The position numbers and the translations under genes were made by a program. Below, one piece after another: positions 23,605 through 47,522 of a DNA stretch of 64,000 bases. Each line of letters opens with the position of its first letter. The first letter of the stretch is position 1. The notes beneath the pieces are model-generated. The model saw nothing but the letters and a program-made list of their open reading frames with translations, ran no database searches and was not told the DNA's origin. This DNA is from Candidatus Eiseniibacteriota bacterium (GTDB lineage Bacteria; Eisenbacteria; RBG-16-71-46; CAIMUX01). The stretch lies in contig CAWHYG010000007.1 in the NCBI GenBank assembly GCA_963833505.1, positions 195,964 to 259,963 on the forward strand, in the 5' to 3' direction.

Positions 23605-25510
23605 GAACCATGGTCACCCATAGCCCCCTCCACAGAACCGGACGAGCGGGACTACCGCATCCGGCTCCCACCTTGGGTCATCACGCCCAGGCGCTGATTG
23701 GGCCAGGGTTGACAGATCCGGGGAATTGGGAGCCATTGAGTCACCAAGCGTTTCCATCGGACGACCGTGAGCCGCGTCGTCTGACTTCGGCGGCGGAGAC
23801 TCCGCCCCCATCGCCAGGACACCGCGTTGCGGAAGGCCGAGAGGGCCGGTCCGTTTCGAGGCACCCCGTAATAGCGGTAGTGCCCGAGCAGGACCGTCCG
23901 CAGGTAGGCTCCTTGGTCCGGGACGGGGTCGTGCAGTCGCCTCCGGAGTTCGCTGCCGATCTCCTTGAGCTTCGCCTGCCACCGCTTGCGCATCGTCTGC
24001 CGCAGCACCGTGAACTTCCCCCGCCGGGTCTTCCCGCAATGTGCGTGAAGCCAAGGAAGTTGAAGGTCGGGGGCTTCCCGTCCCCCCGATCGCGTCGGTT
24101 CTTCTCGGCGAAGCGACCGAACTCGATCAGGCGGGTCTTTTCCGGGTGCAGCTCCAGCCCGAACTTTGCGAAGCGTTCGCGCAGCTCGACCAGGAACCGC
24201 TCGGCCACGTCTCGATGCTGGAACCCAACCACGAAGTCATCGACAAAACGCACCACGACCACGTCGCCGCGCGCTTGCTTCGTTCTCCATCGCTGGATCC
24301 ACAGGTCGAGAGCATAGTGCAGGTAGACGTTGGCCAGGAGGGGACTGATCGACCCGCCCTGAACCGTGCCCACCCTCCCGGCGATGCGCTTCCCCTCCTC
24401 CAGCACGCCGGCCTTGAGCCACTTCAGGATCAAGCGCACGACCCGCTGGTCCGCGATCCGGTGCTCGATGAATTTCCGCAGCCATCCATGGTCGAGGGTA
24501 TCGAAGAACGACCGGATGTCGGCGTCGAGCACCCAGCTCACCTTCTTCCGTTCGATCCCGACCGTGAGTGCATCCAGCGCTTGATGCGGGCTGCGTCCCG
24601 GTCGGGAACCATAGGAAAATCCGAGGAAGTCGATTTCGTAGATGGCGTTCAACACCTCGACCACCGCACGCTGGACGATCTTGTCCTCCAGCGTCGGAAC
24701 TCCGAGCGGCCGCTGCCGCCCGTCGGTCTTGGGGATGTACGCTCGCCGAACCGGCTTCGCCCGATACGCTCCTCGCTTCAGCCTTTCGGAAAGGTCTCGG
24801 AGGTTCTCTTCCAAGTTTTCCCCGTAGTGCTGCCAGGTCTCGCCGTCGATTCCTGCCGCCGCGTTCTTCTTCAGGGCGAAGTAGCCCGCGCGCAGTCGAT
24901 CCACGTCGTAGACATGGTGCAGGAGCGTGGTGAACCGCTGTTTCCTGTCCTTTCTTGCCGCCTGTCGTACCCGCTCCAGTCCGCTGGGCACGCACTCCCG
25001 GCTCTGTGTCCGGTGCGTGTCGGCTTCGAGCGAGTTCCCCTTGGCCCGACCCCTTCCCTCCATCACCTCCGCCACCGGTCGCCCGGCACCGTTCGGCGAC
25101 TTCCCCGGTACTACGGGTCGGTCCGACCTCCCACCTTCGTCCATCATCGGCGTGCGCCTTTCGGCTTCCCGATGCGGTCTGGGCATACCCTGCTTCCAGA
25201 CGAGGGCGGGATCTCCCGGTTCCCATGCAAGGTGACTCCGAACGTGCTCAGGGCCTCTGACCGCGCGGGGTCCCTCGGCGTCTCGCCATGGCGACGCCCA
25301 GGGTGTGGCCTTCCGCTAACCTCCACAGCGTCGGCACCCCGAAGTGATTCATGGATTACGCGGCTCAATACCCGGCCCGCCCGTACCCCTGTCAACGCTT
25401 CACTCCCGGCCTCGCGGCCGACAGCGCATGACTCGGGGCCATCGTGGGTGGCTGGCCCTTCGATGTATGACTCTTTCATTCACTTCACCTCGCCGGTTTG
25501 ACCGGCGCAC
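23605..25510 (-). mobile_element. bacterial group II intron (~1.9 kb) in antisense orientation between yceD and rpmF
   Basis: Minus strand starts GTGCGCCGG (GUGYG 5' consensus) at 25510; domain-V-like hairpin GAGCCGGAUGCGG-UAGU-CCCGCUCGUCCGGUUC at 23635..23667 with AGC triad; encodes an RT/maturase ORF; 3' boundary approximate (+/-5 nt). Confidence 0.8.
23652..25186 (-). CDS. group II intron-encoded reverse transcriptase/maturase (apparent -1 frameshift after FLGFTHI, near 24010-24040)
   Basis: ORF 23741..25186 carries RT motifs (AAGIDGETW, RRAYIPKTDGRQRPLGVPTLEDKIVQ, VVRFVDDFVVGF, FLGFTHI); ORF 23652..24008 in another frame carries the maturase/X domain (LRQTMRKRWQAKLKEI ... LLGHYRYYGVP); junction reads attgcgggaagacc where ggaaag would restore the frame. 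Confidence 0.85.
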
Positions 25511-25519
25511 GGAGGCACC

Positions 25520-25699
25520 ATGGCCCTGCCCAAGAGGCGACACTCGAGCGCACGGCGGGACAAGCGCAAGGCGAACTGGAAACTGGCGGCCCCGCCCGCT
25601 TCGAAGTGCTCCAACTGCGGAGCCGTCAAGCGCCCCCATTACGTCTGCCCGCAGTGCGGCTACTATCGGGACGAGGAGTTCGTGGTCGTCGAGAGCTGA
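25520..25699 (+). CDS. rpmF: 50S ribosomal protein L32
   Basis: 59-aa ORF below track cutoff, read directly: MALPKRRHSSARRDKRKANWKLAAPPASKCSNCGAVKRPHYVCPQCGYYRDEEFVVVES; ggagg RBS 5 nt upstream. Confidence 0.85.
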   Translation: MALPKRRHSSARRDKRKANWKLAAPPASKCSNCGAVKRPHYVCPQCGYYRDEEFVVVES

Positions 25700-25765
25700 G
25701 GCGCCGGCCCGTCCGAGCGCAGCTCGAGTCATGCGAAGGCATCTTGAGGCAGACACGAGGCCGTC

Positions 25766-26842
25766 TTGGACCGCTTGGGGCCTGGTGAGGGCGGCTTGAC
25801 CGATCTCGTTCGCCGCAGGCGAGTGGCCGTCGACGCCATGGGGGGAGACACCGGTCCCGCGGTGATCGTGGCCGGAGCCGTTGAGGCCGCGCGCCGCTAC
25901 TTTGACACCACCCAGGTCGTCCTGGTCGGCGACGAAAGCGAGATCCGCCGCCATCTGGACCGGACCGTCGAGGAGGAGCTCGGCGTCGAAGTCGTCCACA
26001 CCAGCCAGACCATCGATATGGGGGAGTCCGCGACCAGCGTCTACCGCCAGCGGCAGGATGCCTCCGTGGTCGTGGCCACCCGGTTGCTCGGAGCCGGGAA
26101 GGTGGACGCCTTGGTTTCCGCGGGCAACACCGGAGCGGTCGTGACCTCGAGCCTGCTCGAGCTCGGGCGGGTCAAAGGGGTGGCGCGTCCGGCCATCGCC
26201 AGCCTGGTGCCGACTCCCACGGGACACACGGTGCTCCTGGACGTGGGCGCGAACTCCGACACCAAGCCGCTCCATCTGTTCCAGTTCGCGATCATGGGAA
26301 GGATCTACGCCCAGTATGTGTTCGACGTGGCCGATCCGCGCGTCGGGCTGCTCAACATCGGCGAGGAGAGCAGCAAGGGCTCGGAAGTGGCCCAGCAGGC
26401 CAACAAGATCCTGGAAGCGAGCCGGGCCAACCTTCACTTCATCGGCAACGTGGAAGGTCGCGACATCCTCCGCGGCACGGCGGACGTGGTCGTCTGCGAC
26501 GGGTTCACCGGCAACGTGATCATCAAGTTCGCGGAGAGCGTGGTCTGGATGGCGGTCGAGTCGGCGCGCCGCGAGCTGGCCAACAATCTGAAGTTCAAGT
26601 TCGGGGCTCTGCTGCTGAAACCGGTGCTGCATCGGTTGCGAAACCGGCTGAATTACGAGGAATATGGGGGGGCGCCGCTGCTCGGTGTGAACGGGGTAGT
26701 CGTGATCGGCCATGGCCGGTCCTCGGCCAAGGCGATCATGAACGCGATCCGCGTGGCTGACAAAGGTGCCCGGGAACGGATCGACCAGAAAATCAGAGAG
26801 GAACTGGCCCGTGAACAGGGAAGCGAAGAGGCAGCTGGTTAG
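25766..26842 (+). CDS. plsX: phosphate acyltransferase PlsX
   Basis: ORF 25766..26842; VAVDAMGGDTGPAVIV ... SAGNTGAVV ... CDGFTGNV motifs; true start may be the GTG at ~25823. Confidence 0.9.
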   Translation: MDRLGPGEGGLTDLVRRRRVAVDAMGGDTGPAVIVAGAVEAARRYFDTTQVVLVGDESEIRRHLDRTVEEELGVEVVHTSQTIDMGESATSVYRQRQDASVVVATRLLGAGKVDALVSAGNTGAVVTSSLLELGRVKGVARPAIASLVPTPTGHTVLLDVGANSDTKPLHLFQFAIMGRIYAQYVFDVADPRVGLLNIGEESSKGSEVAQQANKILEASRANLHFIGNVEGRDILRGTADVVVCDGFTGNVIIKFAESVVWMAVESARRELANNLKFKFGALLLKPVLHRLRNRLNYEEYGGAPLLGVNGVVVIGHGRSSAKAIMNAIRVADKGARERIDQKIREELAREQGSEEAAG

Positions 26843-27821
26843 GGAGGTTCGCTTCGTCTCGACCGGTCGGTATGCCAATGAGAACCGGATCCTCACGAAC
26901 CAGGATCTCGAGAGGATGGTCGACACCTCGGACGAGTGGATCACGACTCGGACCGGGATCAAGGAACGGCGGATGGCCGAGCCGGAGCAGGCGGCCTCCG
27001 ATCTGGCCTATCCGGCCGGCAAGCAGGCGATGGAGCGCGCCGGGGTCCGGCCCGAAGATCTCGACGCCATCATCGTCGCCACCGTGACCGGCGATCACTG
27101 GTTCCCGTCCACCGCCTGCCTCCTGCAGGCGCGTTTCGGTGCCGTCAACGCCTACTGCATGGACGTCATGGCGGGCTGCTCCGGATTCCTCTATGCCACC
27201 CAGACCGCGCGCGGTCTCATCGCTTCCGGTTTCGCCGACACGGTGCTGGTGATCGGCGTCGAAGTGCTGACCCGCATCACCGACTGGCAGGATCGCAGCA
27301 CCTGCATCCTCTTCGGCGACGCCGCCGCGGCCGCGATCTTGAAGCCCGGGGACGAAGACCACCGGATCCTCGGCCTCAGGCTCGGCGCGGACGGCACCAA
27401 CTCTTCCCTGATCGAGCTGCCCGCCGGCGGGACGCGGATGCCGATCACTCCGGAGGTGCTGGCAGGGCGCCTGAACTACATCCGCATGAAGGGCAACGAG
27501 GTCTTCAAGCTCGGCGTCCGGGGGATGGAGGAGGTCGCGAGGCAGGTGCTGGATGAAACCGGTTACACACCGGCCGATCTCAAGCTCCTGATCCCGCACC
27601 AGGCGAATCTGCGAATCATCGAAGCCACCGCGAAGCGGCTCGAGGTTCCGCCGGAAAAAGTCTATTGCAACATCCAAAAATACGGCAATACTTCGTCCGC
27701 ATCCGTCCCGCTGGCCCTGGACGAAGCGCTGGTCGAGGGGCGCGTCGTCGAGGGCGATCTCGTGCTCATGGTGGTGTTCGGCGCGGGTCTGACCTGGGGC
27801 GCGGGACTGATCCGCTGGTGA
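26811..27821 (+). CDS. fabH: 3-oxoacyl-ACP synthase III
   Basis: Within ORF 26766..27821; NQDLERMVDTSDEWITTRTGI, AGCSGF, HQANLRI, GNTSSASVP motifs; start set at in-frame GTG, overlapping plsX 3' end. Confidence 0.9.
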   Translation: MNREAKRQLVREVRFVSTGRYANENRILTNQDLERMVDTSDEWITTRTGIKERRMAEPEQAASDLAYPAGKQAMERAGVRPEDLDAIIVATVTGDHWFPSTACLLQARFGAVNAYCMDVMAGCSGFLYATQTARGLIASGFADTVLVIGVEVLTRITDWQDRSTCILFGDAAAAAILKPGDEDHRILGLRLGADGTNSSLIELPAGGTRMPITPEVLAGRLNYIRMKGNEVFKLGVRGMEEVARQVLDETGYTPADLKLLIPHQANLRIIEATAKRLEVPPEKVYCNIQKYGNTSSASVPLALDEALVEGRVVEGDLVLMVVFGAGLTWGAGLIRW

Positions 27822-27977
27822 GGTCCCAGCAGGGGGCCGGCGGCGCGGAATCGACGGCCCTCGATCTGGAGGCGACGGAGGCGCTTCACCCACCGGGCCG
27901 ACTCGTCGGGGACGACGCCGGCGAACCGAAGGAGCCGGTTTCGCCCGCGGCCATGGTGGTCACGCCGTGAGGCGGCG

Positions 27978-28934
27978 GTGGCATGGAAGGAGGACCGATT
28001 GAAGACGGCCTTGCTGTTCCCCGGACAGGGATCGCAGTTCGTCGGCATGGGCCGGGACCTCTACGAGCGCCATCCTGAGGCCCGGGCGACCTTCGACGAG
28101 GCCTGCGAGATCCTGGGTGTGGATCTGAAGCGCATCTGCTTCGAGGGGCCGGAGGAGGAGCTCCGGCGCACGCACAACACCCAGCCGGCGATCTTCGTCC
28201 ACAGCGTGGCGACGCTGCGATCGATGGGCCTCCGGCCGGAGGGCGCGGACTTCCGTGCCGCCGGACACAGCCTGGGCGAGTACAGCGCCTATGTCGCCGC
28301 GGGAGCGATCTCGTTCGCGGACGCGCTGCGGCTCGTGCGGAGACGCGGGGAGCTCATGTACCAGGCGGGCCTGGACCGGCCCGGCACCATGGCGGCCATC
28401 CTCGGCCTCGAGGGCCGGCGGGTGGCGGAAGTGCTCGAGTCGGTTCCCGGGATCGTCCGGGCCGCCAACTTCAACTCTCCGGGACAGGTCGTGATTTCCG
28501 GGGAGGTCGAGGCGGTCGGGTTGGCGGCGCAGCGCTTGAAGGAAGCGGGGGCGCGGAAGACGATCCCGCTCGAGGTGAGCGGGGCGTTTCACTCCCCCTT
28601 GATGAAAGGCGCGGCGCGGGGATTGTCCGAGATGCTGTCAGGGACGCCCCTGGCGCGCGCGCGCTGTCCGGTCCTGGCCAACGCCTCCGCGACCGAGGTA
28701 GTCGAGCCGGAAGCCATCCGGACCTCACTCGAGGCGCAGCTCCTCTCGCCGGTGCTCTGGGAACAGACGGTCCGCGCCCTCCTGGACTGGGGCGCCGGCC
28801 GGTTTGTCGAGATCGGACCGGGCAAGGTGCTCACCGGACTGGTTCGGGCCGCGGACAAGGAGGCGAGCACGCTGGCGATCGGGGACGCCGCGCAGGTCGA
28901 GGCCTTCCGAACGGAGGAGGGACGGGAGGCATGA
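27978..28934 (+). CDS. fabD: malonyl CoA-ACP transacylase
   Basis: ORF 27978..28934; ALLFPGQGSQFVGMG, GHSLGEYSA motifs; likely start is TTG at 27999 after aaggagg. Confidence 0.9.
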   Translation: MAWKEDRLKTALLFPGQGSQFVGMGRDLYERHPEARATFDEACEILGVDLKRICFEGPEEELRRTHNTQPAIFVHSVATLRSMGLRPEGADFRAAGHSLGEYSAYVAAGAISFADALRLVRRRGELMYQAGLDRPGTMAAILGLEGRRVAEVLESVPGIVRAANFNSPGQVVISGEVEAVGLAAQRLKEAGARKTIPLEVSGAFHSPLMKGAARGLSEMLSGTPLARARCPVLANASATEVVEPEAIRTSLEAQLLSPVLWEQTVRALLDWGAGRFVEIGPGKVLTGLVRAADKEASTLAIGDAAQVEAFRTEEGREA

Positions 28935-29752
28935 TCAACCGGAACGCATTCTCGATCTCGAACCTGCCCGCGGACGGAGAGCCCGCCTTGTCCGGCACGC
29001 GTCGACCTGGGAAGCTGGAAGGACGGGTCGCCCTGGTCACGGGGGGGAGCCGGGGGATCGGTCGGTCGGTCGCGCTTCGGCTGGCGGCGGACGGAGCCGA
29101 TCTCGCGCTGGTCGACCGGACGGGCGAGCCGGAGGGACCGGCGGTGGTGGAGATCCGCGCTCTCGGCCGCCGCTGCCGCCACTTCCGTTGCGACGTGTCC
29201 GATCCGGCCCGGGTGCAGGCGTTGGCGGCCGAGGTGCAGGAAGCGCTGGGCCCTGTCTCGATCCTGGTCAACAATGCCGGCGTCACCCGGGACAACTTGT
29301 TCCTGCGCCTCGGGACCGAGGAATGGGACACGGTGCTCGGGATCAACCTGAAAGGGGCGTTTCACTGCATCAAGTTCCTCAGCCGCGGTATGCTGAAGGA
29401 GCGATGGGGCCGGATCGTAAACATGAGCTCCGTCGTGGGCCAGATGGGAAACAAGGGGCAGGCGAACTACGCCGCCTCCAAGGCCGGCTTGATCGGGCTG
29501 ACGGTCTCAGTGGCCCGGGAGCTGGCCGAACGGGGGATCACGGTCAACGCCGTGGCTCCGGGGTACATTGACACCGACATGACCGGGATACTGCCGGAGC
29601 CGGTTCGCGCCGAGCTTCTCCGGAGCATTCCAGCGGGCCGGATCGGGCATCCCGAGGACGTCGCCGGGATCGTGGCGTTTCTCGCTTCGGACGAGGCGGC
29701 CTACATCACCGGCCAGGTCATCCGGGTCGACGGCGGCATGCTCATGGGCTGA
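28931..29752 (+). CDS. fabG: 3-oxoacyl-ACP reductase
   Basis: ORF 28931..29752; [29 protein letters not shown] motifs; ATGA overlap with fabD stop; has ~28-aa N-terminal extension so start is uncertain. Confidence 0.9.
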
Positions 29753-29841
29753 CGGCCGTGGGTGGTCCTCGCGGGAGGTCCCGGGGGGACCAGGTTCGAG
29801 GGGCGACGAAGGGGGGGGATGCCCCCGGAGGAAGGAATCCG

Positions 29842-30114
29842 ATGGACAACTACGAGCAGAAGATCCGGGACATCATCGTCGAACAGCTTGGGGTCACGCC
29901 CGAGAAGGTGACGCCGGAGGCGTCGTTCATCGACGACCTGGGTGCCGATTCCCTGGACACGGTCGAGCTGATCATGGCCCTGGAGGAGGCCTTCGAGATC
30001 GAGATCCCGGACGAGGACGCGGAGAAGATGGAGAAAGTAGGCGACGCGATCCGCTACCTGAAGGATCATTCTGGAGGCGGCCAAGTAGGGTGCCGCCATC
30101 GGCCTGGACCATAA
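29842..30114 (+). CDS. acpP: acyl carrier protein
   Basis: In-frame ATG (residue 29 of ORF 29758..30114): [18 protein letters not shown] ... [18 protein letters not shown] (phosphopantetheine-attachment Ser motif). Confidence 0.85.
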
Positions 30115-31419: not shown

Positions 31420-32265
31420 ATGGGCTGGATCCAGCAGCTATGGCGGCGCCTTCAAGGCGGGCCAAAGCGCCAGGCCGCGGACATTCAAGGCATCCTGGAC
31501 GCCTTTCAGAGGGAGATCGGGCTCAGGTTCAACGACCAGGCCCTTCTCCGCCAGGCGCTGACCCATCGATCCTTCCTGGGGAGCAACGGAGCCGACCCGC
31601 GCCTGTCCAACGAGCGGATCGAGTTCCTCGGCGACGCCGTGCTCGAGCTGGCCGTGATCGAGTTCCTCTATCGCCTGTATCCGGAAGACCGCGAAGGAGC
31701 CCTGACGAAGAAGAAGGGGTTGCTCGTTTCCCGGGAGGTGCTGGCCCACTGCGCGGAGCGGATGCGTCTGGGGAACTACATCCTTTTGAGCGACGCCGAG
31801 CGGGATTCAGGCGGTCGGGCCCGGGCTTCGATCCTCGCCGACACCTTTGAAGCGGTGGCGGGCTCGATCCATCTCGATCACGGATTGGTCGAGGCCCGAC
31901 GCTTCGTGCGCGAGCGGCTGCTGGTGCATGCCGACAGCATCCTGAAGGATCAGTCCCTCTCGAATCACAAGAGCCTCCTGCAGGAGCGCGTCCAGGCCCG
32001 GTTCAAGACGCATCCTCGCTATCGGGTGGTCACGGAGAGCGGCCCGGACCACATGAAGGTGTTCACCGTGGAGGTCTCGATCCGGGGAATGCTCCTGGGG
32101 CGCGGGCAAGGGAACAACAAGAAGGAGGCGGAACAGGCCTCGGCGCAGAACGCCCTCTTCCGCCTCGGCCAGATCGAGCCCGACCTTCCCCCGGCAGAGC
32201 CCGCAGCGGCGCACCGCGAGACGCCGCCGGCCGGGACCGGCGGGGATCCAAGCCCATCCCCTTGA
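31420..32265 (+). CDS. rnc: ribonuclease III
   Basis: ORF 31420..32265; RNase III signature ERIEFLGDAVLELAV and C-terminal dsRBD; Pro/Ala-rich C-terminal tail. Confidence 0.9.
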   Translation: MGWIQQLWRRLQGGPKRQAADIQGILDAFQREIGLRFNDQALLRQALTHRSFLGSNGADPRLSNERIEFLGDAVLELAVIEFLYRLYPEDREGALTKKKGLLVSREVLAHCAERMRLGNYILLSDAERDSGGRARASILADTFEAVAGSIHLDHGLVEARRFVRERLLVHADSILKDQSLSNHKSLLQERVQARFKTHPRYRVVTESGPDHMKVFTVEVSIRGMLLGRGQGNNKKEAEQASAQNALFRLGQIEPDLPPAEPAAAHRETPPAGTGGDPSPSP

Positions 32266-33786: not shown

Positions 33787-33930
33787 GGAGATCCTCCTTC
33801 AAAACAGAGCGGCGCCGGAGCGGGGACGACGCAACGCTCGCCGGACGCCGTCGAGCGCAAGGGGGAACCCGGAGACCTGCTCTTGCTCAGGCGTCGTCAT
33901 CGTCTCCTCGGTTCCGCTGCGAGGTTCGCC

Positions 33931-36310: not shown

Positions 36311-36377
36311 AGGCAGGGGTTCGGGAACCCTTTCACCCCGACAGGGTTTCACCCGATGATGCCATAAGGGAGAAGAT

Positions 36378-37006
36378 ATGCAGGTGAGTGACGAAAAACG
36401 GGCGACACCGCTCATATCGGGGCTTCCGGACGAGGTCCTGATGGAACACGTCGTGAGGGGCTCGGAGGCGGCGTTCGCCACTCTGGTGGATCGCTACAAG
36501 GGCCGCGTCATCAACGTCGTCTGCCGGTTCATCAACGACCGGGATCGCGCCCAGGAGATCGCCCAGGAGGTGTTTCTCCGCGTCTTTGTGCACCGCGAAC
36601 GCTATCGTCCGAACGGCAAGTTCAGCACGTGGATCTACACGATCGCGGTGAACCTCGCGAAGAACGAGATCCGGCGCCGGGTGCGATCCGCGGAATCGTC
36701 AGCCTGGACGCGCTTCTGGAGGTGGCGGGCGACTCCAGCAAGTTCGTGGCCGACCCCGGCCCGCGCCCCGATCGCCGGCTGCGGCAGAGAGAGATCGAGG
36801 AGTGGGTGCAGAAGGGTCTGTCCGAGCTTCCGGAGAAGTACCGCGAGGTCATCATCCTGAGAGACTTTCAGCAGCTTTCCTACGAAGAGATCGAAGAGGT
36901 CTTGGGCATTCCGGGGGGGACGGTCCGTTCCCGGATCAATCGGGCCAGGGCATCGTTGCAGGAACGCCTGGGGGCCCTGGTGGAAGGTGGCATCGATGAA
37001 TTGTAG
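36378..37006 (+). CDS. ECF-family RNA polymerase sigma factor (apparent frameshift near 36690)
   Basis: ORF 36378..36860 has sigma region 2 (DEVLMEHVVRGSEAAFATLVDRYKGRVINVV ... STWIYTIAVNLAKNEIRRR); ORF 36629..37006 in another frame has region 4 (YREVIILRDFQQLSYEEIEEVLGIPGGTVRSRINRARASLQ); a single base in gaa(a)tc would join them. Confidence 0.8.
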
Positions 37007-37655
37007 GCAGGCGCGGGCTTTGTTCTCGAACCGCATCGACCATGAGCTGGCGACCCGGGACACCCAGCGTCTCGAGCGCCATGTGGCCGTGTGTCGTGAG
37101 TGCCAGGCCAAGTGGGAGTCCTTCGAGCTGACCGTCCGGATGGTCCGCACGTTGCCCCAGGCCGCTCCCGACGCCTCGTTCGTCGGCCAGGTGCTTGACC
37201 GCGTGCGGGGCTACGAGGCGGAGAACCGCGCCCGGGAGCGCGAGGCCCGGATCGGGATCCTCGACCGGATCCGGGACGGGCTGGAGGGCGCCCTCTGGCG
37301 GCGCCTGCAGCTTCCGGTCCAGCTTGCCGGAGCCGCGGCGTTCGGGCTGTTGGCGGGCTTTGTCGTCACGCAGACCCATCTGTTGTCCGGGAGGGTTCCG
37401 ATGACGATGACCGCCGCCATCCAGGGCTCCGTTCCGTTCTCCTCAGCGAGCGCCGTGGCCGGCGTCGTCCAGTCGCGCCGACCGTTCGACGACCTCGTCG
37501 GGACCATTGCGGAAAGGCAGGGATCCGGAAACTCCGACTCGGCTGCCGCCGTCCGGTCGCCGTCTTCGGACGCCGCGTCCGGTGTGCTGCAGGGGTCCGG
37601 GGCGGAGCGCCAGGTGAGCTTGAGTGCCGATGGCCGCCCTCAAATCACCTTCTAG
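36987..37655 (+). CDS. anti-sigma factor, zf-HC2 type, single TM helix
   Basis: ORF 36987..37655; N-terminal CRQA...H-x3-C-x2-C zinc-finger pattern (HVAVCRECQ); central TM LAGAAAFGLLAGFVV; directly follows and overlaps the ECF sigma gene. Confidence 0.7.
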   Translation: MASMNCRQARALFSNRIDHELATRDTQRLERHVAVCRECQAKWESFELTVRMVRTLPQAAPDASFVGQVLDRVRGYEAENRAREREARIGILDRIRDGLEGALWRRLQLPVQLAGAAAFGLLAGFVVTQTHLLSGRVPMTMTAAIQGSVPFSSASAVAGVVQSRRPFDDLVGTIAERQGSGNSDSAAAVRSPSSDAASGVLQGSGAERQVSLSADGRPQITF

Positions 37656-38928
37656 AGCCCGCCGACCAGACCCGCAGGTATCCGTCTTCGAGGGGGCGCC
37701 GGCCGGCTCGAGAGCCAGGCTGAGCGTCCCCGTTCTCTTGCTGGCTCTCCTCGTCGCTCCGGCGCTGCGCGTCGCAGCGGCCTCGGGACCGCCCGGCTAT
37801 CCTCCGGTCGCCGACGCTCTGGCCCGCCTCAGCCGCGACCTGGAGCCGTCGGTCGTCCAGATCATCTCCTTCCGGCCGATCGGACCGTCCCCGCGAGACC
37901 TGGAGGGCGCCGGAAGCGTGTCGAGATTGGAACCGTCGCGCGAAACGCTCTGGGCCTCCGGAGTGGTCTTGGACGAGCAGGGGACGATTCTCACCTGCGC
38001 CGAAACCGCCCAGCCGGGTGACAGCCTCGAAATCCGCACCGCGGCGGGCCGGCGGTTCGGGGCTCGTTTCCTCGCGCTCGACGCTCCGCTGGGAGTGAGC
38101 CTGATCCAGGCGTCCGGCGCGGAAGGGCTGGCGCCGATCCGCCTGAGCGGTCCGGCGCCTTTCCGGAGAGGCTCGTCCGTGCTGGTGCTTCACTACGTGG
38201 CCGAGGGCCAGGAGCCCGTGCTCAAGCTCGGCGCGATGACCGCCCCGCCCGCCGGTCCGGGAGACCAGAACACGCACCTGAGACTGGCCCTGGCCGACTG
38301 CCACGGCGCGTGCGGAGGCGCGGTCGTCGATGCCGACGGCCACTTCTGCGGGATCGTGGTGGACATCCAGGCGGAAGCCGAGGCCCAGGGCGGCCAGGGC
38401 GAAGTCAGACAGCCGGCGGATCTGCTTGAATACGACGACGTGGGCGTTCTCTGCGCGGGGATGTTCCCGGATCTGGCCGCGCGTCTGGAGAACCAGGCCG
38501 AGCGGCGGTTCGGTTATCTGGGGGTGCAGGCCCGGGTGGGGGACGAGTTGAGCCGGGAGCCGGATCCGGCGGACTCCACTCGCGGGCCGATCTTCGTCAG
38601 CCGCGTGTTCCCGGGCAGCCCGGCCGAGGTCGCCGGATTCCTGCCAGGGGATCAGATTCTCGCCATCGACGGGCGGGAGGTCTCCGGGCGCGCCCAGGTG
38701 ATCCGGCAGCTAGCCGAGACGCCTCCCGGCAGCGAGATCCAGGTCAAGCTGCTTCGAAGAGGGGTTCCCCTTACGCTGTATCCCCGGGTCGGGGATCGCT
38801 CGTCTCTGGAGTGGATGCAGCGCGAAGACCAGCTCAACCAGATCCGGCAGAGGCGCATCCGGCGCACCATCCAGGAGCTGGAGATCCACCTCCATCAGAT
38901 CGAAGAGCCGAAGGTGGCGCAACGCTGA
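37624..38928 (+). CDS. trypsin-like (DegP/HtrA-like) periplasmic protein with C-terminal PDZ domain; catalytic motifs non-canonical
   Basis: ORF 37624..38928; signal peptide; PDZ motif IFVSRVFPGSPAEVAGFLPGDQILAIDGREV; protease-like core where the expected GNSGGP appears as GACGGA and the TNAH-type His motif as LTCAE. Confidence 0.65.
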   Translation: MPMAALKSPSRARRPDPQVSVFEGAPAGSRARLSVPVLLLALLVAPALRVAAASGPPGYPPVADALARLSRDLEPSVVQIISFRPIGPSPRDLEGAGSVSRLEPSRETLWASGVVLDEQGTILTCAETAQPGDSLEIRTAAGRRFGARFLALDAPLGVSLIQASGAEGLAPIRLSGPAPFRRGSSVLVLHYVAEGQEPVLKLGAMTAPPAGPGDQNTHLRLALADCHGACGGAVVDADGHFCGIVVDIQAEAEAQGGQGEVRQPADLLEYDDVGVLCAGMFPDLAARLENQAERRFGYLGVQARVGDELSREPDPADSTRGPIFVSRVFPGSPAEVAGFLPGDQILAIDGREVSGRAQVIRQLAETPPGSEIQVKLLRRGVPLTLYPRVGDRSSLEWMQREDQLNQIRQRRIRRTIQELEIHLHQIEEPKVAQR

Positions 38929-39127
38929 GCCGTCCTCCCGGCCTTGACCTCTGCCCGGCCCGATGCTGATGATTCTCCGGTGCCTCGCGACGGGCGATCA
39001 TGAATAATGCGGGCTGTTCTTCGGAACGTGTTGGACCGCCGCGCCCGGGAACTGGAGCGCGGGGGCGGGAAGAGGCTCGGCGAGCCCACATCGAGAGGTA
39101 GGGAACCGGCAGGCACGCCGCTGGGCG

Positions 39128-40808: not shown

Positions 40809-41315
<507 letters not shown>

Positions 41316-41320
41316 GCGGA

Positions 41321-41350
41321 CGCGGCGGGGCCTGCAAGGCCGCGCCGCCG
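41321..41350 (+). terminator. GC-rich hairpin downstream of accB (terminator-like)
   Basis: gcggcggggcc-tgcaa-ggccgcgccgc, ~8 nt after the accB stop; no clear U-tract. Confidence 0.35.
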
Positions 41351-41506
41351 GCGAGAAGTCAAGGGGGTCCTCTTCCCGGCGCGCTACGCCGGCGCTCCGA
41401 CGTTCCGATCGAACGGCGGCCCTTCTGCCGAGGCCGTGCGCCGGCGTTCCGATCGGCAGGCCGCTCTCTTGATGAGGCCGCGCCCCGGCAGGTGTCCGGC
41501 GAAAGG

Positions 41507-42727
41507 ATGGCGATGGATTTCCGCCGCGTTCTCGAGATCGTCCTCGATCGGAAGGCGAGCGACCTCCACCTCAAGGTGGGAACCCGGCCGCAGATCCGGG
41601 TGGACGGCAGGATCGAGAGCGTCGATGAGCCCCCGCCCACCGTGAAGGAGATGGAAGGCTTCGCCGACATGCTCCTCACGCCGGCCCAGAAGCAGGAGCT
41701 GGCGCAGAAGCGGGAGATCGACTTCGCGATCGGAGTTCCCGGCCTGGCTCGATTCCGGGCCAACGTCTACTACCAGCGGGGGACGATGGCGGTCGTGCTC
41801 CGGCACGTCCCCCTCGGCGTCCCCGCCTTTGAAGAGCTGAATCTTCCGCCCCAGGTGGAGAAGCTCGCGCTCTCTCCCCGCGGCCTCGTCCTGGTCACGG
41901 GCACGGTCGGCAGCGGCAAGTCCACGACGCTGGCTTCGATGATCGATTCGATCAACCGCCGGATCGCGCGCTCCATCATCACGGTGGAAGACCCGGTCGA
42001 GTTTCTCCATCGCGACGACAAGTGCGTGATCAGCCAGCGCGAGGTCGGCCTCGACACCTTGAGCTACGCCGACGCGCTCCGGCACATCCTGAGGCAGGAT
42101 CCCGATGTCATCCTGCTCGGCGAAATCCGGGACCGGGAGACCATGTCGACGGCGCTCATGGCCGCGGACACCGGCCATTCGGTGCTCTCCACCCTGCACA
42201 CGGTGGACGCAGCCCAGACGGTGAACCGCATTCTCTCGTTCTATCCGCCCCACCAGCACGAGGAGATCCGCTACCTTCTCGCCTCCACGCTGCGGGCGGT
42301 GGTGTCGCTGCGGCTGATTCCCAAGGCCGGAGGTTCCGGCCGGGTGCCCGCCGCGGAGATCCTGGTCAACACTCCGACCATCCGGGACTATCTGATGTCC
42401 GCGGACAAGACGCATTCGATACGCTCGGCGATCCAGGAGGGTGCCACGCAGTACGGGATGCAGTCCTTCGATCAGTCCTTGATGCGTCTCTATCGGCGCG
42501 GTTTGATCACGCAGGAGGAGGCGGTGCGGAACTCGTCGACTCCGACCGAGTTCGAGCTGCGGATCCGGGGCATCCAGGCTTCCAGCGACACGAGCTGGGA
42601 CGTGTTCGAGGAGGGGCCCGCCGGTCCGATTCCCTCGGAAGAGCCGGGCTCGGCCGGCGGCAGCGAAGAGCGCGCCCCGGTCGCGCGGGAGCCGGCCGCG
42701 GGGCCCGGAGGCGTGGTGCGGTATTGA
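41507..42727 (+). CDS. pilT: type IV pilus twitching-motility ATPase PilT/PilU family
   Basis: In-frame ATG (residue 209 of ORF 40883..42727): Walker [41 protein letters not shown] motifs. Confidence 0.9.
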
Positions 42728-42810
42728 AGCGTTCCGGTCGCGACGCGACCGACGTTCCCACGACCCGGGCGGCGGATCGGTTCCGGGAAGGGGCAGAGCG
42801 CAGGAGGCGC

Positions 42811-44232
42811 ATGTTCACGAAGATTCTGGTCGCCAATCGGGGCGAGATCGCGGTGCGGATCATCCGCGCCTGCCAGGAACTGGGCGTGGCCACCGTCGCC
42901 GTCTACTCGGACGCGGACCGGGATTCCCTCCACGTGCGCATGGCGGACGAAGGCATCTGCATCGGTCCGGCGCCGAGCCGGGAAAGCTATCTCAACGTGA
43001 CCCGCGTCATGAGCGCGGCCCAGATCTCCAACGCCGACGCGATCCATCCCGGATACGGGTTCCTGGCGGAGAATCATCAGTTCGCCGAGGCGGTCGAGAC
43101 TTCCGGCCTGACCTTCATCGGGCCGGCGCCCGAGTCGATCCGCGTCATGGGCGACAAGAGCATCGCCAAGGCGACGATGAAGGCGGCGGGAGTGCCGGTG
43201 GTTCCGGGCAGCGAAGGAACCGTCGACGATGTGGCCGTCGCCCTGGTCCTGGCGGAACGCATTGGATACCCCATCATCCTCAAGGCCAAGGACGGCGGCG
43301 GCGGAAAGGGCATGCGCGTGGTCTCGGCTCCGGAGGAGCTGGAGCGCCAGTACCAGACGGCGCAGAACGAAGCAGCGGCCGCGTTCGGCAACGGCGCCCT
43401 CTACCTGGAGAAGTACCTGCGCGCTCCCCGGCACATCGAGATCCAGCTCGCGGGGGACACGGCCGGACGCGTGGTCCACTTCTTCGAACGGGATTGTTCG
43501 ATCCAGCGGCGGCATCAGAAGCTGCTCGAAGAGACTCCCAGCCCGGGGCTGAATCTGCAGACGCGCGAGGCCATGGGTCGGGTGGCCTGCGAGGGGGCGG
43601 GCGCCATCGGCTACCGGGGCCTGGGCACGATGGAGTTCCTGCTCGACCAGGACGGCTCCTACTACTTCATGGAGATGAACACCCGGCTCCAGGTGGAGCA
43701 TCCGGTGACGGAAATGGTCACGGGCATCGACCTCGTCAAGTTGCAGATCCGGATCGCCGCGGGCGAGCCGATTCCCTTCGGCCAGTCGGACATCGTGCAG
43801 CGGGGACACGCCATCGAATGCCGGATCAACGCGGAATCGCCGCACCAGGGGTTCCGTCCCTGCCCCGGCACCGTGACCGGTTTCCACATCTCGGGAGGCT
43901 TCGGCATCCGGCTCGACAGCCATGTCTACGCGGGTTACGCCATCCCGCCGCACTACGACTCCATGATCGCGAAGCTCATCGCTCACGGGCGCGACCGGGA
44001 AGAGGCCGTCGCCCGGATGTCGCGGGCTCTCCGGGAGTCGGTCATCGAGGGCATCGACACCACTATTCCCTACCATCGGGCGATCCTGTCCGACCCGGAC
44101 TTCCTGGCCGGCCGGTTCGACACCCGTTTCGTCGAGCTGCATAAACTGACATCCGAGCGCGAAGGCGGCGCCGGCGCGTCCGCGCCTCGATCCGAGGCCC
44201 AGGCGGCGCCGCGGGCCTCCGGAACGGCATGA
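42811..44232 (+). CDS. accC: acetyl-CoA carboxylase biotin carboxylase subunit
   Basis: In-frame ATG (residue 264 of ORF 42022..44232): [20 protein letters not shown] ... [20 protein letters not shown] ... [14 protein letters not shown]. Confidence 0.95.
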
Positions 44233-44284
44233 ACCCCACCCGGAGCGGATCCAGGATCCGCGCCGGCCCGGAGTTGAACGCACC

Positions 44285-45079
44285 ATGAAGATTGAGCTTC
44301 TGTTGACCGGCGGGGAGGTTCCTGATTTCCACGCCAAGGGGAGGCGCATCGTGCTGGTGGACGTGCTGCGCGCCGGCACCAGCCTGGCGGTCGCCCTCGA
44401 ATCCGGCGCCGAACGCATCGTGCCCGCGGAGTCGGTTGAAGCGGCCAAGAAGCTGCTGGCGCTGCTGGATCGAAAGAGCACGCTTCTGGCGGGGGAGATG
44501 GACGGAGCCAAGCTTCCGGGCTTCGACCTGGGCAACTCGCCCGGCGAGTTCCGCGACGCCCAGATCGCGGGCAAGACCATCGTCTTCAGCTCCAGCGATG
44601 GAGCGCCGCTCATGGCGCGGATGTGGGACGCGGCCGAGATGCCCCTGCTTTCGTTCGTGAACATCCAGGCCGTGACCGACTATCTGCTGGCCATGGAGGA
44701 GACCGACCTCTCGGTGATCTGCGCGGGCCGGGAAGGCCGCTTCAGCATGGAGGATGCGGTCTGCGCCGGCATGCTCTGCGAGCGGCTCGCCGGGAAGTCG
44801 TCGGATCTCGAGACCAATGACGCGGGCCGGGCCGCCCTGTTGCTCTACCGGGCCCGCGCCGCCGATCTGACCGAAGTGCTGCGGACCTGCTCGAGCGGGC
44901 TTTTCCTCAAGAGCCTGGGGCTGGAGGCGGATCTGGACGAGGCCGCCCGCGTCGACTCGATCCGGCTGGTGCCGGTGGTTCGCGAGGGACGGATCACGGC
45001 GATTCGCCCGCCCTGGCCGGCGCCCGCCGTGGACCCGCCGGTCAGTGGGTCACCTTCCAGAAGAGCAGCCCGCCGATAG
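44285..45079 (+). CDS. 2-phosphosulfolactate phosphatase (ComB) family protein
   Basis: ORF 44285..45079; resemblance to the ComB family (VLVDVLRAGTS ... SSDGAPL ... AGREGRFSMEDAVCAG); assignment from memory, moderate. Confidence 0.6.
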   Translation: MKIELLLTGGEVPDFHAKGRRIVLVDVLRAGTSLAVALESGAERIVPAESVEAAKKLLALLDRKSTLLAGEMDGAKLPGFDLGNSPGEFRDAQIAGKTIVFSSSDGAPLMARMWDAAEMPLLSFVNIQAVTDYLLAMEETDLSVICAGREGRFSMEDAVCAGMLCERLAGKSSDLETNDAGRAALLLYRARAADLTEVLRTCSSGLFLKSLGLEADLDEAARVDSIRLVPVVREGRITAIRPPWPAPAVDPPVSGSPSRRAARR

Positions 45080-46151
45080 CTCCGAAGACCAGATTCCCGA
45101 GCCAGGCCGCCAGCATCGGGGGAAGATCCCCGTTGTACCCCAGCGCCTGGCCGACTCGGATGAAGGAGAAGTAGGCGAACCCCACCGAGACGCTGATGCC
45201 GAATCCCAGCGCCAGGTTGCCGCCCCGGACCACCCGGAGGGACAGGGCGGTCCCGAGCAGGACCATGATCAGGTTGGCCAGGGGGAACGAGGCGCGGAGA
45301 TGGAAGTTCGTCATGTGCTTCTGAACGCCCCCGCCGCTTTCCCGCACCCGCCGCGCGAAGGCGAGCAGGTTCTTCATGCTCATGTGAAAGGGATCCTCGT
45401 TCAAGCGGGCGAAGTCTCCCGGCACCTCCGCCAGCGAGCTGTTGCCGTAGTACTGGAAGTGGAGGACGGTCTCGGAGGAATCGCGGAAGGACCGGTCGTA
45501 GCCGCGAAAGAAGCGCCAGGTCCCTTGCAGGTACTCGGCCGACTCCGCGTCGATCCTCCGGCGGATCTCCGGCCGTTGGATGAACTGGAGGGAGACGCCG
45601 CGAAGGGCCTGGGCTCCCGCGTCGTAGTACTGGGCCACGTAGAAGCGCCTCTGGGCGCCCAGGAACCGGACCTCGGTCTGGCTCTCGCGGTCGGCGTCGG
45701 ACTGCTTTCGGATCTCCTCGGAGAGAATGCGCTGCTGTCGCGCGTAGCTCGACGGACCGATGGCTTCGTTCATGACGTACTGGCCGATCGAGACCAGGAG
45801 GGCGGTCAGGAGCAGCGGCCGGGCCAGGCGCCATGGGCTTTCTCCCGCTCCCTGCATGGCGGTGACCTCGTTGTTCTTCCGGAGCGCGCTCAATCCCAAG
45901 AGGGCGCCGAGCAGAAGCGCCAGGGGCAGCACCTCGGTCAGGGTGGTGGGCAGCCCGTTGCCGTAGTAGCGGAGGACCATGAGAGGCGTGGCGTGGTTGT
46001 CCACGAAGACGTCGAGCTTCTCGAAGAGGTCGACGATGATGAACAGGCCGACGAAGCTGACCAGCCCGAGGAGGGAGTAGCCCAGGAACTCCCGGAGCAG
46101 GTATCGGTCGAGGATTCTCACGCCGATCCTTCCGCCGCCGCCCCGTCTCAT
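45042..46151 (-). CDS. LptF/LptG-family LPS export permease (YjgP/YjgQ)
   Basis: Second half of ORF 45042..47522; starts MRRGGGGRIGVRILDRYLLREFLG (ATGA overlap with upstream stop); N-terminal TM helices, periplasmic domain, C-terminal TM helices. Confidence 0.75.
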   Translation of the reverse strand: MRRGGGGRIGVRILDRYLLREFLGYSLLGLVSFVGLFIIVDLFEKLDVFVDNHATPLMVLRYYGNGLPTTLTEVLPLALLLGALLGLSALRKNNEVTAMQGAGESPWRLARPLLLTALLVSIGQYVMNEAIGPSSYARQQRILSEEIRKQSDADRESQTEVRFLGAQRRFYVAQYYDAGAQALRGVSLQFIQRPEIRRRIDAESAEYLQGTWRFFRGYDRSFRDSSETVLHFQYYGNSSLAEVPGDFARLNEDPFHMSMKNLLAFARRVRESGGGVQKHMTNFHLRASFPLANLIMVLLGTALSLRVVRGGNLALGFGISVSVGFAYFSFIRVGQALGYNGDLPPMLAAWLGNLVFGAIGGLLFWKVTH

Positions 46152-47522
46152 ATCGACCGGGCCCGCGCGCGGCGGGCCGGCTGGCCCGAAGTGATGGCCC
46201 GGGCCGTCAGGTAGAGACCGAGGAGGCCGAGGACGATGTTCGGAAGCCACATCGCCAGCCAGGGGGAGATGATCAGGCGGTCGGCCAGTTGCTCGCCTCC
46301 GACCAGGCAAAGGTAGTAGAACAGGAAGAAGACCACGCTGAAGAACGCCGCCGCCATCCCTCCGCGCCGGGCCATGGTTCCGAGCGGGGCGCCCACGAGA
46401 ACGAACACGATGCAGGCGACCGGAATCGAGAGCTTCTTCTGGATCTCGACCCGGTAGCTGCTGATCTGGCGTTTGACCGAGCTGATCTCGTCCATTCTGG
46501 GATCGGATCTTCTCGGCCTCGAGCTTCTGCTCCGACGTCCAGCTCGGGGGAGCGCCGGAAGGCACGGCGGGAGCACGGTGGCGGAGGGCGCCGAGCAGGA
46601 CGGCCGCTTGGAGGAGGGGAACGGGATAGACCCGATTCAGGTCGGCCAGGCTCTTGACCGGAAGTTTCGTCATCTCCTGCCGGATGAGCGTGTCCTGCCG
46701 CGCCTGCTCGGTCCGGAGCGTGCGCACGGCGGCCTCCATGGCCGGGATCGACATCTCCCGCTGGCCGCGCTGATGTTCCATCGTGGTCCGGAACTGATCG
46801 GTCGGGTCGCTGATGTTGAGGGTCTGGGCGTCGAAACGGAGCCGCCGATACTCGCCCGTCGTCGAGGTCGGATCGGCCTCGTGGATCTCGCCGTCCACGA
46901 GGTCCAGCGTGAGCGAGTTCGTGTCCGCGCGGAACCGGAGCGTACCGGTGCGCGCCAGGATGGTCCTCGGCGAGATCGGATGGGTTCTCCCGTCCAGGAT
47001 GAGCACATCCCGCATCGCTCCGGTGGCGTCGTCCAGGTGGCCGATCCAGAGGTCGTACCCCCGGAAGTCGGTGATCATCACCCCCTCGCGGATCTGGGCG
47101 GTCGGGTGCTTCCGGGAGACGTCGCTCAAGGTCTGCGAGTATCCGTAGTTCATGTCGGGCAGGATGTAGTTGTTGAAGAGCGCCAGCACCCCGGCCACAA
47201 TCACGGAAGCTGCAAGCGCCGGGCGCAGCACGGTCATGAGGTGGACGCCGCTGGCCCGGATCGCGATGATCTCGTTGTCCTGGCTAAGGCGGCCGAAGGT
47301 CATCAGGACGGAGACCAGGACTCCGCAAGGCACGGAGAGGGCGACCATCCAGCCGAGGGCCAGGACGAAGAGCTTGAGGACGATCCAGGCGCCGACGCCC
47401 TTGACGATGAGGAGCTCCAGAAGGTCCAGGAGCATGTCGATCGTCAGGAGAAAGGTCACGAAGCCGAACCCGATGAAGAACGGCCCGACCAGGGATCGGG
47501 CCACATAGCGTTTCAGGATCAT
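46148..47522 (-). CDS. LptF/LptG-family LPS export permease (apparent frameshift ~46500-46600)
   Basis: N-terminal 300 aa in the frame of ORF 45042..47522 (MILKRYVARSLVGPFFIGFGF ...); C-terminal TM region in the frame of ORF 46148..46576 (EIQKKLSIPVACIVFVLVGAPLG ... LGLLGLYL); a G5 run at 46546-46550 lies in the switch region. Confidence 0.7.

What the first reader, a model, noticed from the sequence alone, without database searches (positions are those of the whole stretch)
23652..47522. Four genes with apparent single-base frameshifts, two at AA/AAA runs
The group II intron RT (ggaag where ggaaag restores frame, ~24020), the ECF sigma factor (gaatc where gaaatc restores frame, ~36690), the lptF-like permease (switch near a G5 run, ~46550) and the 2885-5693 gene (outside this span, ~4100-4500) each split across two reading frames. 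The pattern looks like homopolymer deletion errors, but could alternatively mean real pseudogenisation or programmed frameshifting. Long conserved genes (infB, accC, the 7.5-kb SprA-like ORF) are intact.
Basis: seen in the sequence. Interest (0 to 1): 0.4.

Follow-up and report, generated by a model that had tools for sequence, protein, structure and literature searches.

The report
Assembly indel errors faking frameshifted genes
The four split genes are real in the sequence, but they (and a fifth, acpP) are most likely single-base consensus errors in a long-read metagenome genome, not pseudogenes or programmed frameshifts, so the finding is ordinary.

Summary
A codon-usage HMM finds exactly four same-strand frame switches with no stop codon, and Pfam domains are split across frames in the RT, the ECF sigma factor and lptF.

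The details are largely wrong:
- Two lesions are one-base insertions, not deletions: gene 2885-5693 (GG at 4300-4301) and lptF (TT at 46495-46496).
- Two are one-base deletions at other places than proposed: RT at CACAT^TGCGGG (about 24038) and sigma at GATCC^GCGG (36688-36689).
- All runs are 1-3 nt long.
- A fifth likely frameshift sits at the 3' end of acpP (TT at 30069-30070).

The window comes from a 2.45-Mb contig of a Candidatus Eisenbacteria-like genome. Independent Logan contigs from run ERR11594402 are 99.9-100% identical to it.
- One contig lacks the extra G at 4300 and encodes the intact protein.
- Other contigs stop exactly at the sigma, lptF and acpP lesions, which is the signature of reads disagreeing on run length.
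- Over 19.8 kb the two assemblies differ by three indels and one substitution.

Each repaired protein is colinear with its orthologues and has their length, with no further decay. lptF and acpP are normally essential.

Verdict: consensus indel errors of a long-read assembly (about 85%). The RT lesion alone could be real. Interest is low.

The parts
2885..5693 (+). Gene of unknown function, 935 aa when repaired, no Pfam hit. It is split between frames by an extra G in GG at 4300-4301 (context CCTGCA[G]GTT).
   Evidence: Frame switch; junction read. Logan contig L002 (window 944-5566) is identical except for this one missing G. Its gene call is an uninterrupted 893-aa cut product identical to the repaired window gene.
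23652..25147 (-). Group II intron RT/maturase ORF, 498 aa when repaired. It lacks one base between 24039/24038 (TT) and 24037, in CAC AT^ TGC GGG.
   Evidence: RVT_1 hit. All of the best 120 homologues listed are unsplit, most of them 496-499 aa, and carry the motif H-x-C-x-K-T-R-x-G-x-F. DNA alignment with a 91%-identical intron (L005) shows a single gap at window 24039. An intact 498-aa paralogue, P0363, sits on the same 2.45-Mb contig.
23601..25510 (-). The group II intron that carries the RT: 5' GTGCG at 25510, 3' ...CCTAC at 23601. It lies antisense between yceD and rpmF.
   Evidence: Rfam group-II-D1D4-6 at 25251-25474 and Intron_gpII at 23595-23669. Ends read. Logan contigs L007 and L001 stop at 23622 and 25486, within k-1 of the intron ends, as expected for a repeat.
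29842..30114 (+). acpP with a probable fifth frameshift: an extra T in TT at 30069-30070 (CAT[T]CTGG). The repaired gene ends at TAG 30086-30088 and is 80 aa.
   Evidence: Logan contig L001 ends exactly at 30069. The repaired tail LEAAK* has GC3 5/5, against 6/14 for the window tail [14 protein letters not shown]. The PP-binding domain ends at residue 73. Homologue alignments mostly stop at query residues 74-81. The 90-aa product exists only on the source contig.
36378..37006 (+). ECF (sigma-E-like) sigma factor, 209 aa when repaired. It lacks one C in CC at 36688-36689 (GATCC^GCGG).
   Evidence: Sigma70_r2 and Sigma70_r4_2 lie in different frames. Orthologues are mostly 209 aa, up to 92% identical, and read RRRVRS-RG-IVSLD. 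Logan L006 ends at 36689 and L004 starts at 36688; this 2-nt overlap is the signature of a CC/CCC bubble.
46148..47522 (-). lptF, 457 aa when repaired. It carries an extra base in TT at 46495-46496 (plus strand CCAT[T]CTGGG; minus strand cag a[a]tg gac).
   Evidence: LptF_LptG profile positions 1-265 and 260-353 fall in different frames. Removing one base gives a gap-free junction with thirteen 449-460-aa orthologues. GC3 places the switch here and not at the G5 run. Logan L003 ends exactly at 46495.
29783..29788 (.). Intergenic G6 run between fabG and acpP. The Logan contig has G5.
   Evidence: It is the only gap in the 4.58-kb alignment of L001 with the window.
44909..44911 (+). In-frame 3-nt difference in the ComB-like phosphatase gene. 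The window has AAG (Lys); the Logan contig lacks it. Here the window looks correct.
   Evidence: With the Lys, the window protein aligns without a gap to PDB homologues 2z0j and 2yyv (LFLKSLGLEAD against LALKQVGLEAD).
25954..25954 (+). The only substitution between the window and 19.8 kb of Logan contigs. It is a synonymous Leu change in plsX: window CTG, Logan TTG.

Best explanation
The frameshifts are single-base consensus errors in a long-read (most likely Nanopore-only) metagenome-assembled genome of a Candidatus Eisenbacteria-like bacterium. At five places in this 64-kb window the assembled consensus has one base too many (4300, 30069, 46495) or too few (24038, 36688) in a 1-3-nt run. That splits otherwise intact, conserved genes into two frames. 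The organism itself most likely carries intact lptF, acpP, the sigma-E-like ECF sigma factor, the 935-aa gene and probably the intron RT.

Shown directly: the lesion positions, the intact allele at site 4 in an independent assembly, and the contig breaks at sites 2, 3 and acpP.

Inferred: that the breaks reflect read disagreement on run length, that the source is a noisy long-read assembly, and that the RT lesion has the same cause.
For: 1. Source. Window proteins are recorded on a single 2,453,571-bp NCBI/ENA contig, which is long-read-scale contiguity for a MAG. LptF and sigma homologues are named Candidatus Eisenbacteria.

2. Independent assembly. Six Logan contigs of run ERR11594402 cover 19,793 nt of the window at 99.9-100% identity. 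L002 lacks the extra G at 4300 and encodes an uninterrupted product identical to the repaired gene.

3. Contig ends coincide to the base with lesion positions that were predicted independently from orthologue alignments.
- L006 ends at 36689 and L004 starts at 36688. This is the shared-prefix and shared-suffix pattern of a CC/CCC bubble.
- L003 ends at 46495.
- L001 ends at 30069.

4. The differences between the two assemblies are three indel events against one substitution in 19.8 kb. That ratio fits sequencing error, not strain divergence.

5. The frameshifted products (90-aa ACP, 160-aa sigma fragment, 468-aa RT fragment) occur only on the source contig and never in Logan.

6. Each repaired protein is colinear with its relatives and matches their length: LptF 457 aa against 449-460 for the aligned orthologues, sigma 209 against mostly 209, RT 498 against mostly 496-499. 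There is no other lesion, and GC3 stays high downstream of each shift.

7. Five of roughly 50 genes are hit. They include lptF and acpP, which are normally essential (established knowledge), and a sigma factor 92% identical to its nearest orthologue.

8. Indel-derived frameshifts are the documented failure mode of Nanopore-only assemblies (PMC9262707 abstract; PMC6469205).
Against: - The sequencing platforms of the MAG and of ERR11594402 could not be established. No paper mentions the run, and the genome is not among the GTDB representatives scanned.
- The Logan contigs are not a clean truth set. They carry a 3-nt deletion that breaks alignment with PDB homologues, a Glu-to-Lys change (REG to RKG) in RNase III at a Glu-Gly motif that, from memory and untested here, is conserved in the family, and a rare-codon synonymous change. 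They may therefore partly represent a second strain or their own errors.
- For sites 1, 2, 3 and acpP the alternative allele itself was never seen. Only contig breaks were observed, or for the RT nothing at all.
- The runs are only 1-3 nt long, which is not the classic long-homopolymer error context.
- No sequence motif was significantly associated with the variable sites.
Confidence: 0.85

Rival explanations
1. Genuine mutations. The assembled strain really carries these frameshifts as recent pseudogenes, or the population is polymorphic for them, and the Logan contigs represent a co-occurring near-identical strain with intact alleles.
For: - Logan contigs break at sites 2, 3 and acpP, which is also what a real two-allele polymorphism would produce.
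- The Logan and window sequences also differ by an in-frame codon indel and by one synonymous and one non-synonymous substitution. These look like strain variants.
- Group II intron ORFs do decay. The window copy differs from the intact paralogue P0363 by three further amino acids.
Against: - Five frameshifts against one or two substitutions in about 20 kb is an implausible natural indel-to-substitution ratio.
- lptF and acpP are normally essential, and the sigma factor is 80-92% conserved among its closest relatives.
- There are no secondary lesions and no loss of codon bias downstream of any shift.
- At site 4 the graph shows no bubble at all: the Logan contig runs straight through with the intact allele.
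- The frameshifted products are never seen outside the one contig.
Confidence: 0.1
2. Only the group II intron RT lesion is real, an inactivated intron copy, while the others are errors.
For: - Mobile-element ORFs are commonly degraded.
- No independent contig covers the site.
- The same genome has an intact, nearly identical RT (P0363), which could in principle supply maturase or RT activity in trans.
Against: - The intron RNA domains score well in Rfam (185.6 and 45.5 bits).
- The first roughly 395 residues are identical to those of the intact paralogue.
- A single base restores a 498-aa ORF carrying every conserved motif residue.
- The same window contains four other lesions of the same kind that are best explained as errors.
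Confidence: 0.25
3. Programmed ribosomal frameshifting, transcriptional slippage, or phase variation at simple repeats.
For: Only the bare fact that the ORFs continue in another frame.
Against: - Orthologues of LptF, sigma and the RT are single unshifted ORFs.
- No X XXY YYZ heptamer, shifty stop or long A/T run is present at any junction (sequence read).
- The runs are 1-3 nt, far below the repeat lengths that give phase variation.
- The shifts go in both directions.
- One lesion is absent from an independent assembly.
Confidence: 0.01

Closest known systems
Indel-induced frameshifts in Nanopore-only bacterial and MAG assemblies. This is the problem addressed by IDEEL-type length checks, by frame-shift correction (PMC6469205) and by the R10.4 evaluation (PMC9262707).
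   Same: - Single-base insertions and deletions split conserved genes.
- The contig is very long (2.45 Mb).
- Many genes are affected per unit length.
- Differences from an independent assembly are dominated by indels.
- The repaired genes have orthologue length.
   Different: The lesions lie in 1-3-nt runs, not in the long homopolymers that are the classic context. The platform could not be verified here. No methylation-type motif was significantly associated with the variable sites.
Bacterial pseudogenes formed by recent frameshift mutation
   Same: One-base indels disrupt ORFs whose two halves are still recognisable.
   Different: Normally essential and highly conserved genes are hit. There is no additional decay. 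The lesion is absent from an independent, otherwise identical assembly at the one site where a comparison was possible.
Programmed frameshifts (prfB +1, dnaX -1, IS3-family -1)
   Same: The coding sequence continues in a second frame.
   Different: The shift is not conserved in orthologues, there are no slippery or shifty sites, and these gene families are not known to use recoding.

Membership tests
Long-read assembly consensus indel artefact | The lesion is absent from an independent assembly or read set of the same organism | tested here: met
   Site 4: Logan contig L002 is identical over 4.6 kb except that it lacks the extra G, and its ORF is intact. No contig spans sites 1, 2, 3 or acpP, so for those this is inconclusive.
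Long-read assembly consensus indel artefact | Reads disagree on run length exactly at the lesion | tested here: inconclusive
   The k-mer contigs end to the base at 36688/36689, 46495 and 30069, with the overlap expected for run-length bubbles.
Long-read assembly consensus indel artefact | Discrepancies with an independent assembly are dominated by indels rather than substitutions | tested here: met
   Three indel events against one substitution in 19,793 nt.
Long-read assembly consensus indel artefact | The assembly derives from noisy long reads without short-read polishing | not testable with these tools
   Only the contig length (2,453,571 bp) points that way. The run and the assembly metadata were not retrievable.
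Long-read assembly consensus indel artefact | Excess of split conserved genes whose repaired length equals orthologue length | tested here: met
   Five of about 50 genes are split. Repaired lengths are LptF 457 aa (aligned orthologues 449-460), sigma 209 (mostly 209), RT 498 (mostly 496-499) and ACP 80.
Genuine pseudogene | The same lesion is reproducible in independent data | tested here: not met
   Not met at site 4. The frameshifted products are found only on the source contig. Sites 1-3 were not directly testable.
Genuine pseudogene | Signs of relaxed constraint: further stops or indels, loss of codon bias | tested here: not met
   There is one lesion per gene, high GC3 continues in the downstream frame, and the alignments with orthologues are full-length.
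Programmed ribosomal frameshift | The frameshift is conserved in orthologues | tested here: not met
   Every listed LptF, sigma and RT homologue is a single ORF.
Programmed ribosomal frameshift | A slippery heptamer or shifty stop at the junction | tested here: not met
   The junctions were read directly: CACATTGCGGG, GATCCGCGG, CCCAGAATGG and CTGCAGGTT. None has a slippery pattern.
Phase-variable contingency locus | A long simple-sequence repeat (homopolymer of about 7 nt or more, or a multi-unit repeat) at the shift site | tested here: not met
   The runs at the five lesions are 1-3 nt.

The most novel reading that the evidence does not exclude
The breaks in the independent k-mer assembly at the sigma, lptF and acpP lesions reflect true co-existing alleles. 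Under this reading a natural Eisenbacteria population would segregate frameshift alleles of envelope genes (lptF, the sigma-E-like factor, acpP).

A related alternative is that the miscalls mark a site-specific DNA modification. Three variable sites share CAT(T)CTGG, but the association is not statistically significant.
Probability: 0.07. Interest if true: 0.4.

Novelty: not a real feature. Interest (0 to 1): 0.08.

Why it matters
The main value is quality control. At about one frameshift per 13 kb, extrapolating linearly from this one window to the 2.45-Mb genome gives roughly 190 broken genes. A naive annotation would report lptF, acpP and the envelope-stress sigma factor of this little-studied phylum as pseudogenes or as novel truncated proteins. 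It might even call an 826-aa lptF-lptG 'fusion', because one frame stays open across both genes.

Any downstream claim from this genome about gene loss, pseudogenisation, recoding or new small ORFs should be made only after frameshift-aware correction or polishing. There is no new biology in the finding itself.

Tried and rejected
- GATC (Dam-type) methylation as the cause. Five of nine contig-break sites lie within 7 nt of a GATC. But GATC occurs every 86 nt here, so the uncorrected p is 0.018 and GATC is not the top 4-mer. Rejected as unsupported.
- A CAT(T)CTGG / CATCTG error motif. It is shared by 25954, 30069 and 46495, and probably by the RT site. However, 23 CATCTG sites in the window show no frame disruption, and of the three further CATCTGG instances (either strand) that lie under Logan contigs, all match Logan exactly. 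A permutation test over all 5- to 7-mers is not significant.
Each restores the frame, but each gives residues that disagree with near-invariant orthologue positions or with codon bias.
- My own first RT repair (an A inserted in GGAAG) gave an Ala where 114 of 120 homologues have Cys. It was replaced after the DNA alignment.
- Other suspected frameshifts turned out to be normal gene boundaries: accB/pilT at 41315-41507, hldA/hldC at 18301-18325 with its own RBS and ATG, and ndk/yceD in the same frame.
- Identifying the source. The run accession appears in no paper, and an exact-pattern scan of GTDB representative genomes allowing either allele found nothing.
- Look-ups that failed because the start codon was guessed wrongly or the protein is not on record.
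- The search of protein representatives for ACP was only weakly informative, because cluster representatives are often over-long ORFs.
Full report
**What the window is.** The window is about 68% G+C, so spurious long ORFs abound. I therefore trained a codon-usage model on confident high-GC3 ORFs and ran a seven-state Viterbi over all six frames. Closest homologues of several proteins are named Candidatus Eisenbacteria. Exact-sequence look-ups place window proteins on a single 2,453,571-bp contig held by NCBI and ENA.

**Checking the observation.** The Viterbi path contains exactly four same-strand frame changes that do not coincide with a stop and a start. They fall near 4308 (+ strand), 24034 (- strand), 36681 (+ strand) and 46495 (- strand). 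Pfam confirms split domains:
- RVT_1 lies in ORF 23741-25186, and the maturase tail lies in another frame.
- Sigma70_r2 lies in 36378-36860, and Sigma70_r4_2 lies in 36629-37006.
- LptF_LptG profile positions 1-265 lie in one frame, and positions 260-353 lie in 46148-46576.

Other candidate junctions proved to be ordinary gene boundaries: accB/pilT, hldA/hldC and ndk/yceD. infB, accC and the SprA_N-containing 2502-aa ORF are intact.

**Direction of the shifts.** The frame arithmetic shows that sites 1 (RT) and 2 (sigma) need one added base. Sites 3 (lptF) and 4 (gene 2885-5693) need one removed base. A uniform 'deletion' model is already excluded by this.

**Site 4 (gene 2885-5693).** Looking up the upstream neighbour (1080-2888) returned Logan contig L002 from run ERR11594402.
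- L002 aligns to window 944-5566 with zero mismatches and a single gap. The window reads CCTGCAGGTT where Logan reads CCTGCAGTT, so the extra G is at 4300-4301.
- The gene called on L002 is an uninterrupted 893-aa product cut by the contig end. It is identical to the window gene after one G is removed; the repaired gene is 935 aa.

This is direct evidence that an otherwise identical sequence exists without the frameshift.

**Site 2 (ECF sigma).** A search with a repaired protein found orthologues up to 92% identical, most of them 209 aa.
- In the eleven closest orthologues aligned, the junction reads RRRV(I)R(S/A)(R/K)(G/R)(I/V)VSLD.
- The window's upstream frame gives RRRVRS and the downstream frame gives RGIVSLD. 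The missing base is therefore the third position of the Ser codon: GATCC^GCGG, with CC at 36688-36689.
- Logan contig L006 is 100% identical to window 33325-36689 and ends at ...GATCC. Logan contig L004 is 100% identical to 36688-39003 and begins CCGCGG....
- A left contig ending at the shared prefix and a right contig starting at the shared suffix, overlapping by the two Cs, is what a de Bruijn graph produces for a CC/CCC bubble. The run's k-mers apparently contain both lengths.

**Site 3 (lptF).** More than 100 homologues of mostly 450-470 aa cover over 90% of the repaired 457-aa protein.
- With one base removed at tcc cag a|atg gac, the junction aligns without a gap to thirteen orthologues. 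Both WTSEQKLEAEKIRS (upstream frame) and EISSVKRQISSYRVEIQKK (downstream frame) match.
- Codon third positions show that the upstream frame is the coding one right up to this point.
- Logan contig L003 (window 43807-46495) ends exactly at the first T of TT 46495-46496. That again fits a T/TT bubble.

**Site 1 (group II intron RT).** The 120 best homologues are mostly 496-499 aa, and the repaired ORF starting at MMDEGG is 498 aa.
- DNA alignment with a 91%-identical intron (L005, from another run) shows one gap: window CACAT-TGCGGGAAGACC against CATATCTGCGGGAAGACC.
- The same 2.45-Mb contig carries an intact 498-aa paralogue, P0363. It is identical over about the first 395 residues and reads HICGKTRQGKF.
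- The intron RNA domains are recognised by Rfam. Logan contigs stop within k-1 of both intron ends, as expected for a repeat.
- No independent contig covers this lesion, so it is the least certain of the five.

**A fifth lesion (acpP).**
- Logan contig L001 (window 25486-30069) ends at the first T of CAT[T]CTGG, the same 8-mer as at site 3.
- In the window, acpP (29842-30114) is 90 aa with the tail [14 protein letters not shown], whose GC3 is 6/14.
- Removing one T gives ...IRYLKDHLEAAK* (80 aa, GC3 5/5), with the stop at 30086-30088.
- The PP-binding domain ends at residue 73. Homologue alignments mostly stop at query residues 74-81.
- The 90-aa product exists only on the source contig.

**Overall comparison with the independent contigs.** Six Logan contigs cover 19,793 nt of the window. 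The differences are:
- one substitution (25954, synonymous CTG/TTG);
- two single-G indels (4300, and the intergenic G6/G5 run at 29783-29788);
- one 3-nt indel (44909-44911).

In addition, three contig ends fall on lesions. Indel events outnumber substitutions 3 to 1. That is the reverse of what strain divergence gives and is typical of noisy-read consensus errors.

The Logan contigs are not error-free either.
- Their 3-nt deletion removes a Lys that aligns without a gap to PDB ComB homologues.
- A Logan RNase III copy has Lys in place of the window's Glu in REG. From memory that Glu-Gly is conserved in the family; this was not tested here.

This pattern fits two different consensus procedures applied to noisy reads. 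It also leaves a small opening for a second strain.

**Alternatives.**
- Programmed frameshifting and phase variation are excluded. Orthologues are unshifted, the junctions (CACATTGCGGG, GATCCGCGG, CCCAGAATGG, CTGCAGGTT) contain no slippery or repeat sequence, the shifts go both ways, and one lesion is absent from an independent assembly.
- Real pseudogenisation is unlikely. It would require five frameshifts per 64 kb in a lineage that shows about one substitution per 20 kb against its nearest sequence. The hits include lptF and acpP, which are normally essential, and a sigma factor 92% identical to its orthologue. None of the genes shows secondary decay.

**Context tests.** I tested whether the variable sites share a methylation-like motif. 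GATC proximity is nominal only: GATC occurs every 86 nt. CAT(T)CTGG recurs at three sites but is not significant in a permutation test. No claim is made about a motif.

**What could not be established.** The sequencing platform was not established. The run accession appears in no paper, and the genome is not among the scanned GTDB representatives. Indel-derived frameshifts are the documented weakness of Nanopore-only assemblies (PMC9262707; PMC6469205).

**Conclusion.** The feature is an assembly artefact of low interest, apart from its role as a warning for annotation of this genome.

Noticed in passing
window 23601-25510 (- strand); yceD 23053-23604, rpmF from about 25520: The group II intron sits antisense in the conserved yceD-rpmF-plsX-fabH-fabD-fabG-acpP-fabF operon, just upstream of the rpmF ribosome-binding site. 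The yceD stop codon (TAG 23602-23604) lies inside the intron's last bases. The intron is multi-copy: an intact paralogue RT, P0363, is on the same 2.45-Mb contig, and the k-mer contigs break at both intron ends.
   Followed up: partly
window 45042-47522 (- strand): One reading frame stays open for 826 codons across lptF and lptG, a high-GC effect. A gene caller could therefore report a spurious lptF-lptG fusion protein whose middle is out-of-frame junk.
   Followed up: yes
whole window: GATC occurs 745 times in 64 kb (1 per 86 nt). That is about four times the roughly 190 expected from base composition alone (my arithmetic). The cause was not examined; it could be codon usage or selection.
   Followed up: no
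window 25952-25958, 30067-30074, 46493-46500 (and 24037-24042 on the - strand): Three of the 13 sites where the window and the Logan contigs differ or break share CAT(T)CTGG, and the repaired RT site would read CATCTG. The association was not significant in a permutation test. It might still mark a context-specific basecalling problem or a DNA modification.
   Followed up: partly
window 36378-38928: The frameshifted ECF sigma factor heads a sigma-E-like envelope-stress module: sigma factor, zf-HC2 anti-sigma factor (36996-37655) and an HtrA/DegP-like Trypsin_2-PDZ protease (37630-38928). The sigma factor is 77-92% identical to its closest homologues, several of them from Eisenbacteria-labelled genomes.
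   Followed up: partly
window 1080-5693 and 16067-17071: Two Lamin-tail-domain (LTD) proteins are present. One of them sits directly upstream of, and overlaps (ATGA), the 935-aa gene that has no Pfam match. The function of this pair is unknown.
   Followed up: no
window 47719-55227: The giant 2502-aa ORF matches SprA_N (type IX secretion) only over residues 1299-1712. The rest has no Pfam annotation.
   Followed up: no
Logan contigs L003 (window 44909-44911) and P0366 (RNase III gene 31420-32265): The independent k-mer contigs carry their own probable errors or strain variants. One is a 3-nt deletion that removes a Lys which aligns gap-free with PDB ComB homologues. The other is a Glu-to-Lys change (REG to RKG) in RNase III, at a motif I recall as conserved but did not test. 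They should not be treated as a truth set.
   Followed up: partly
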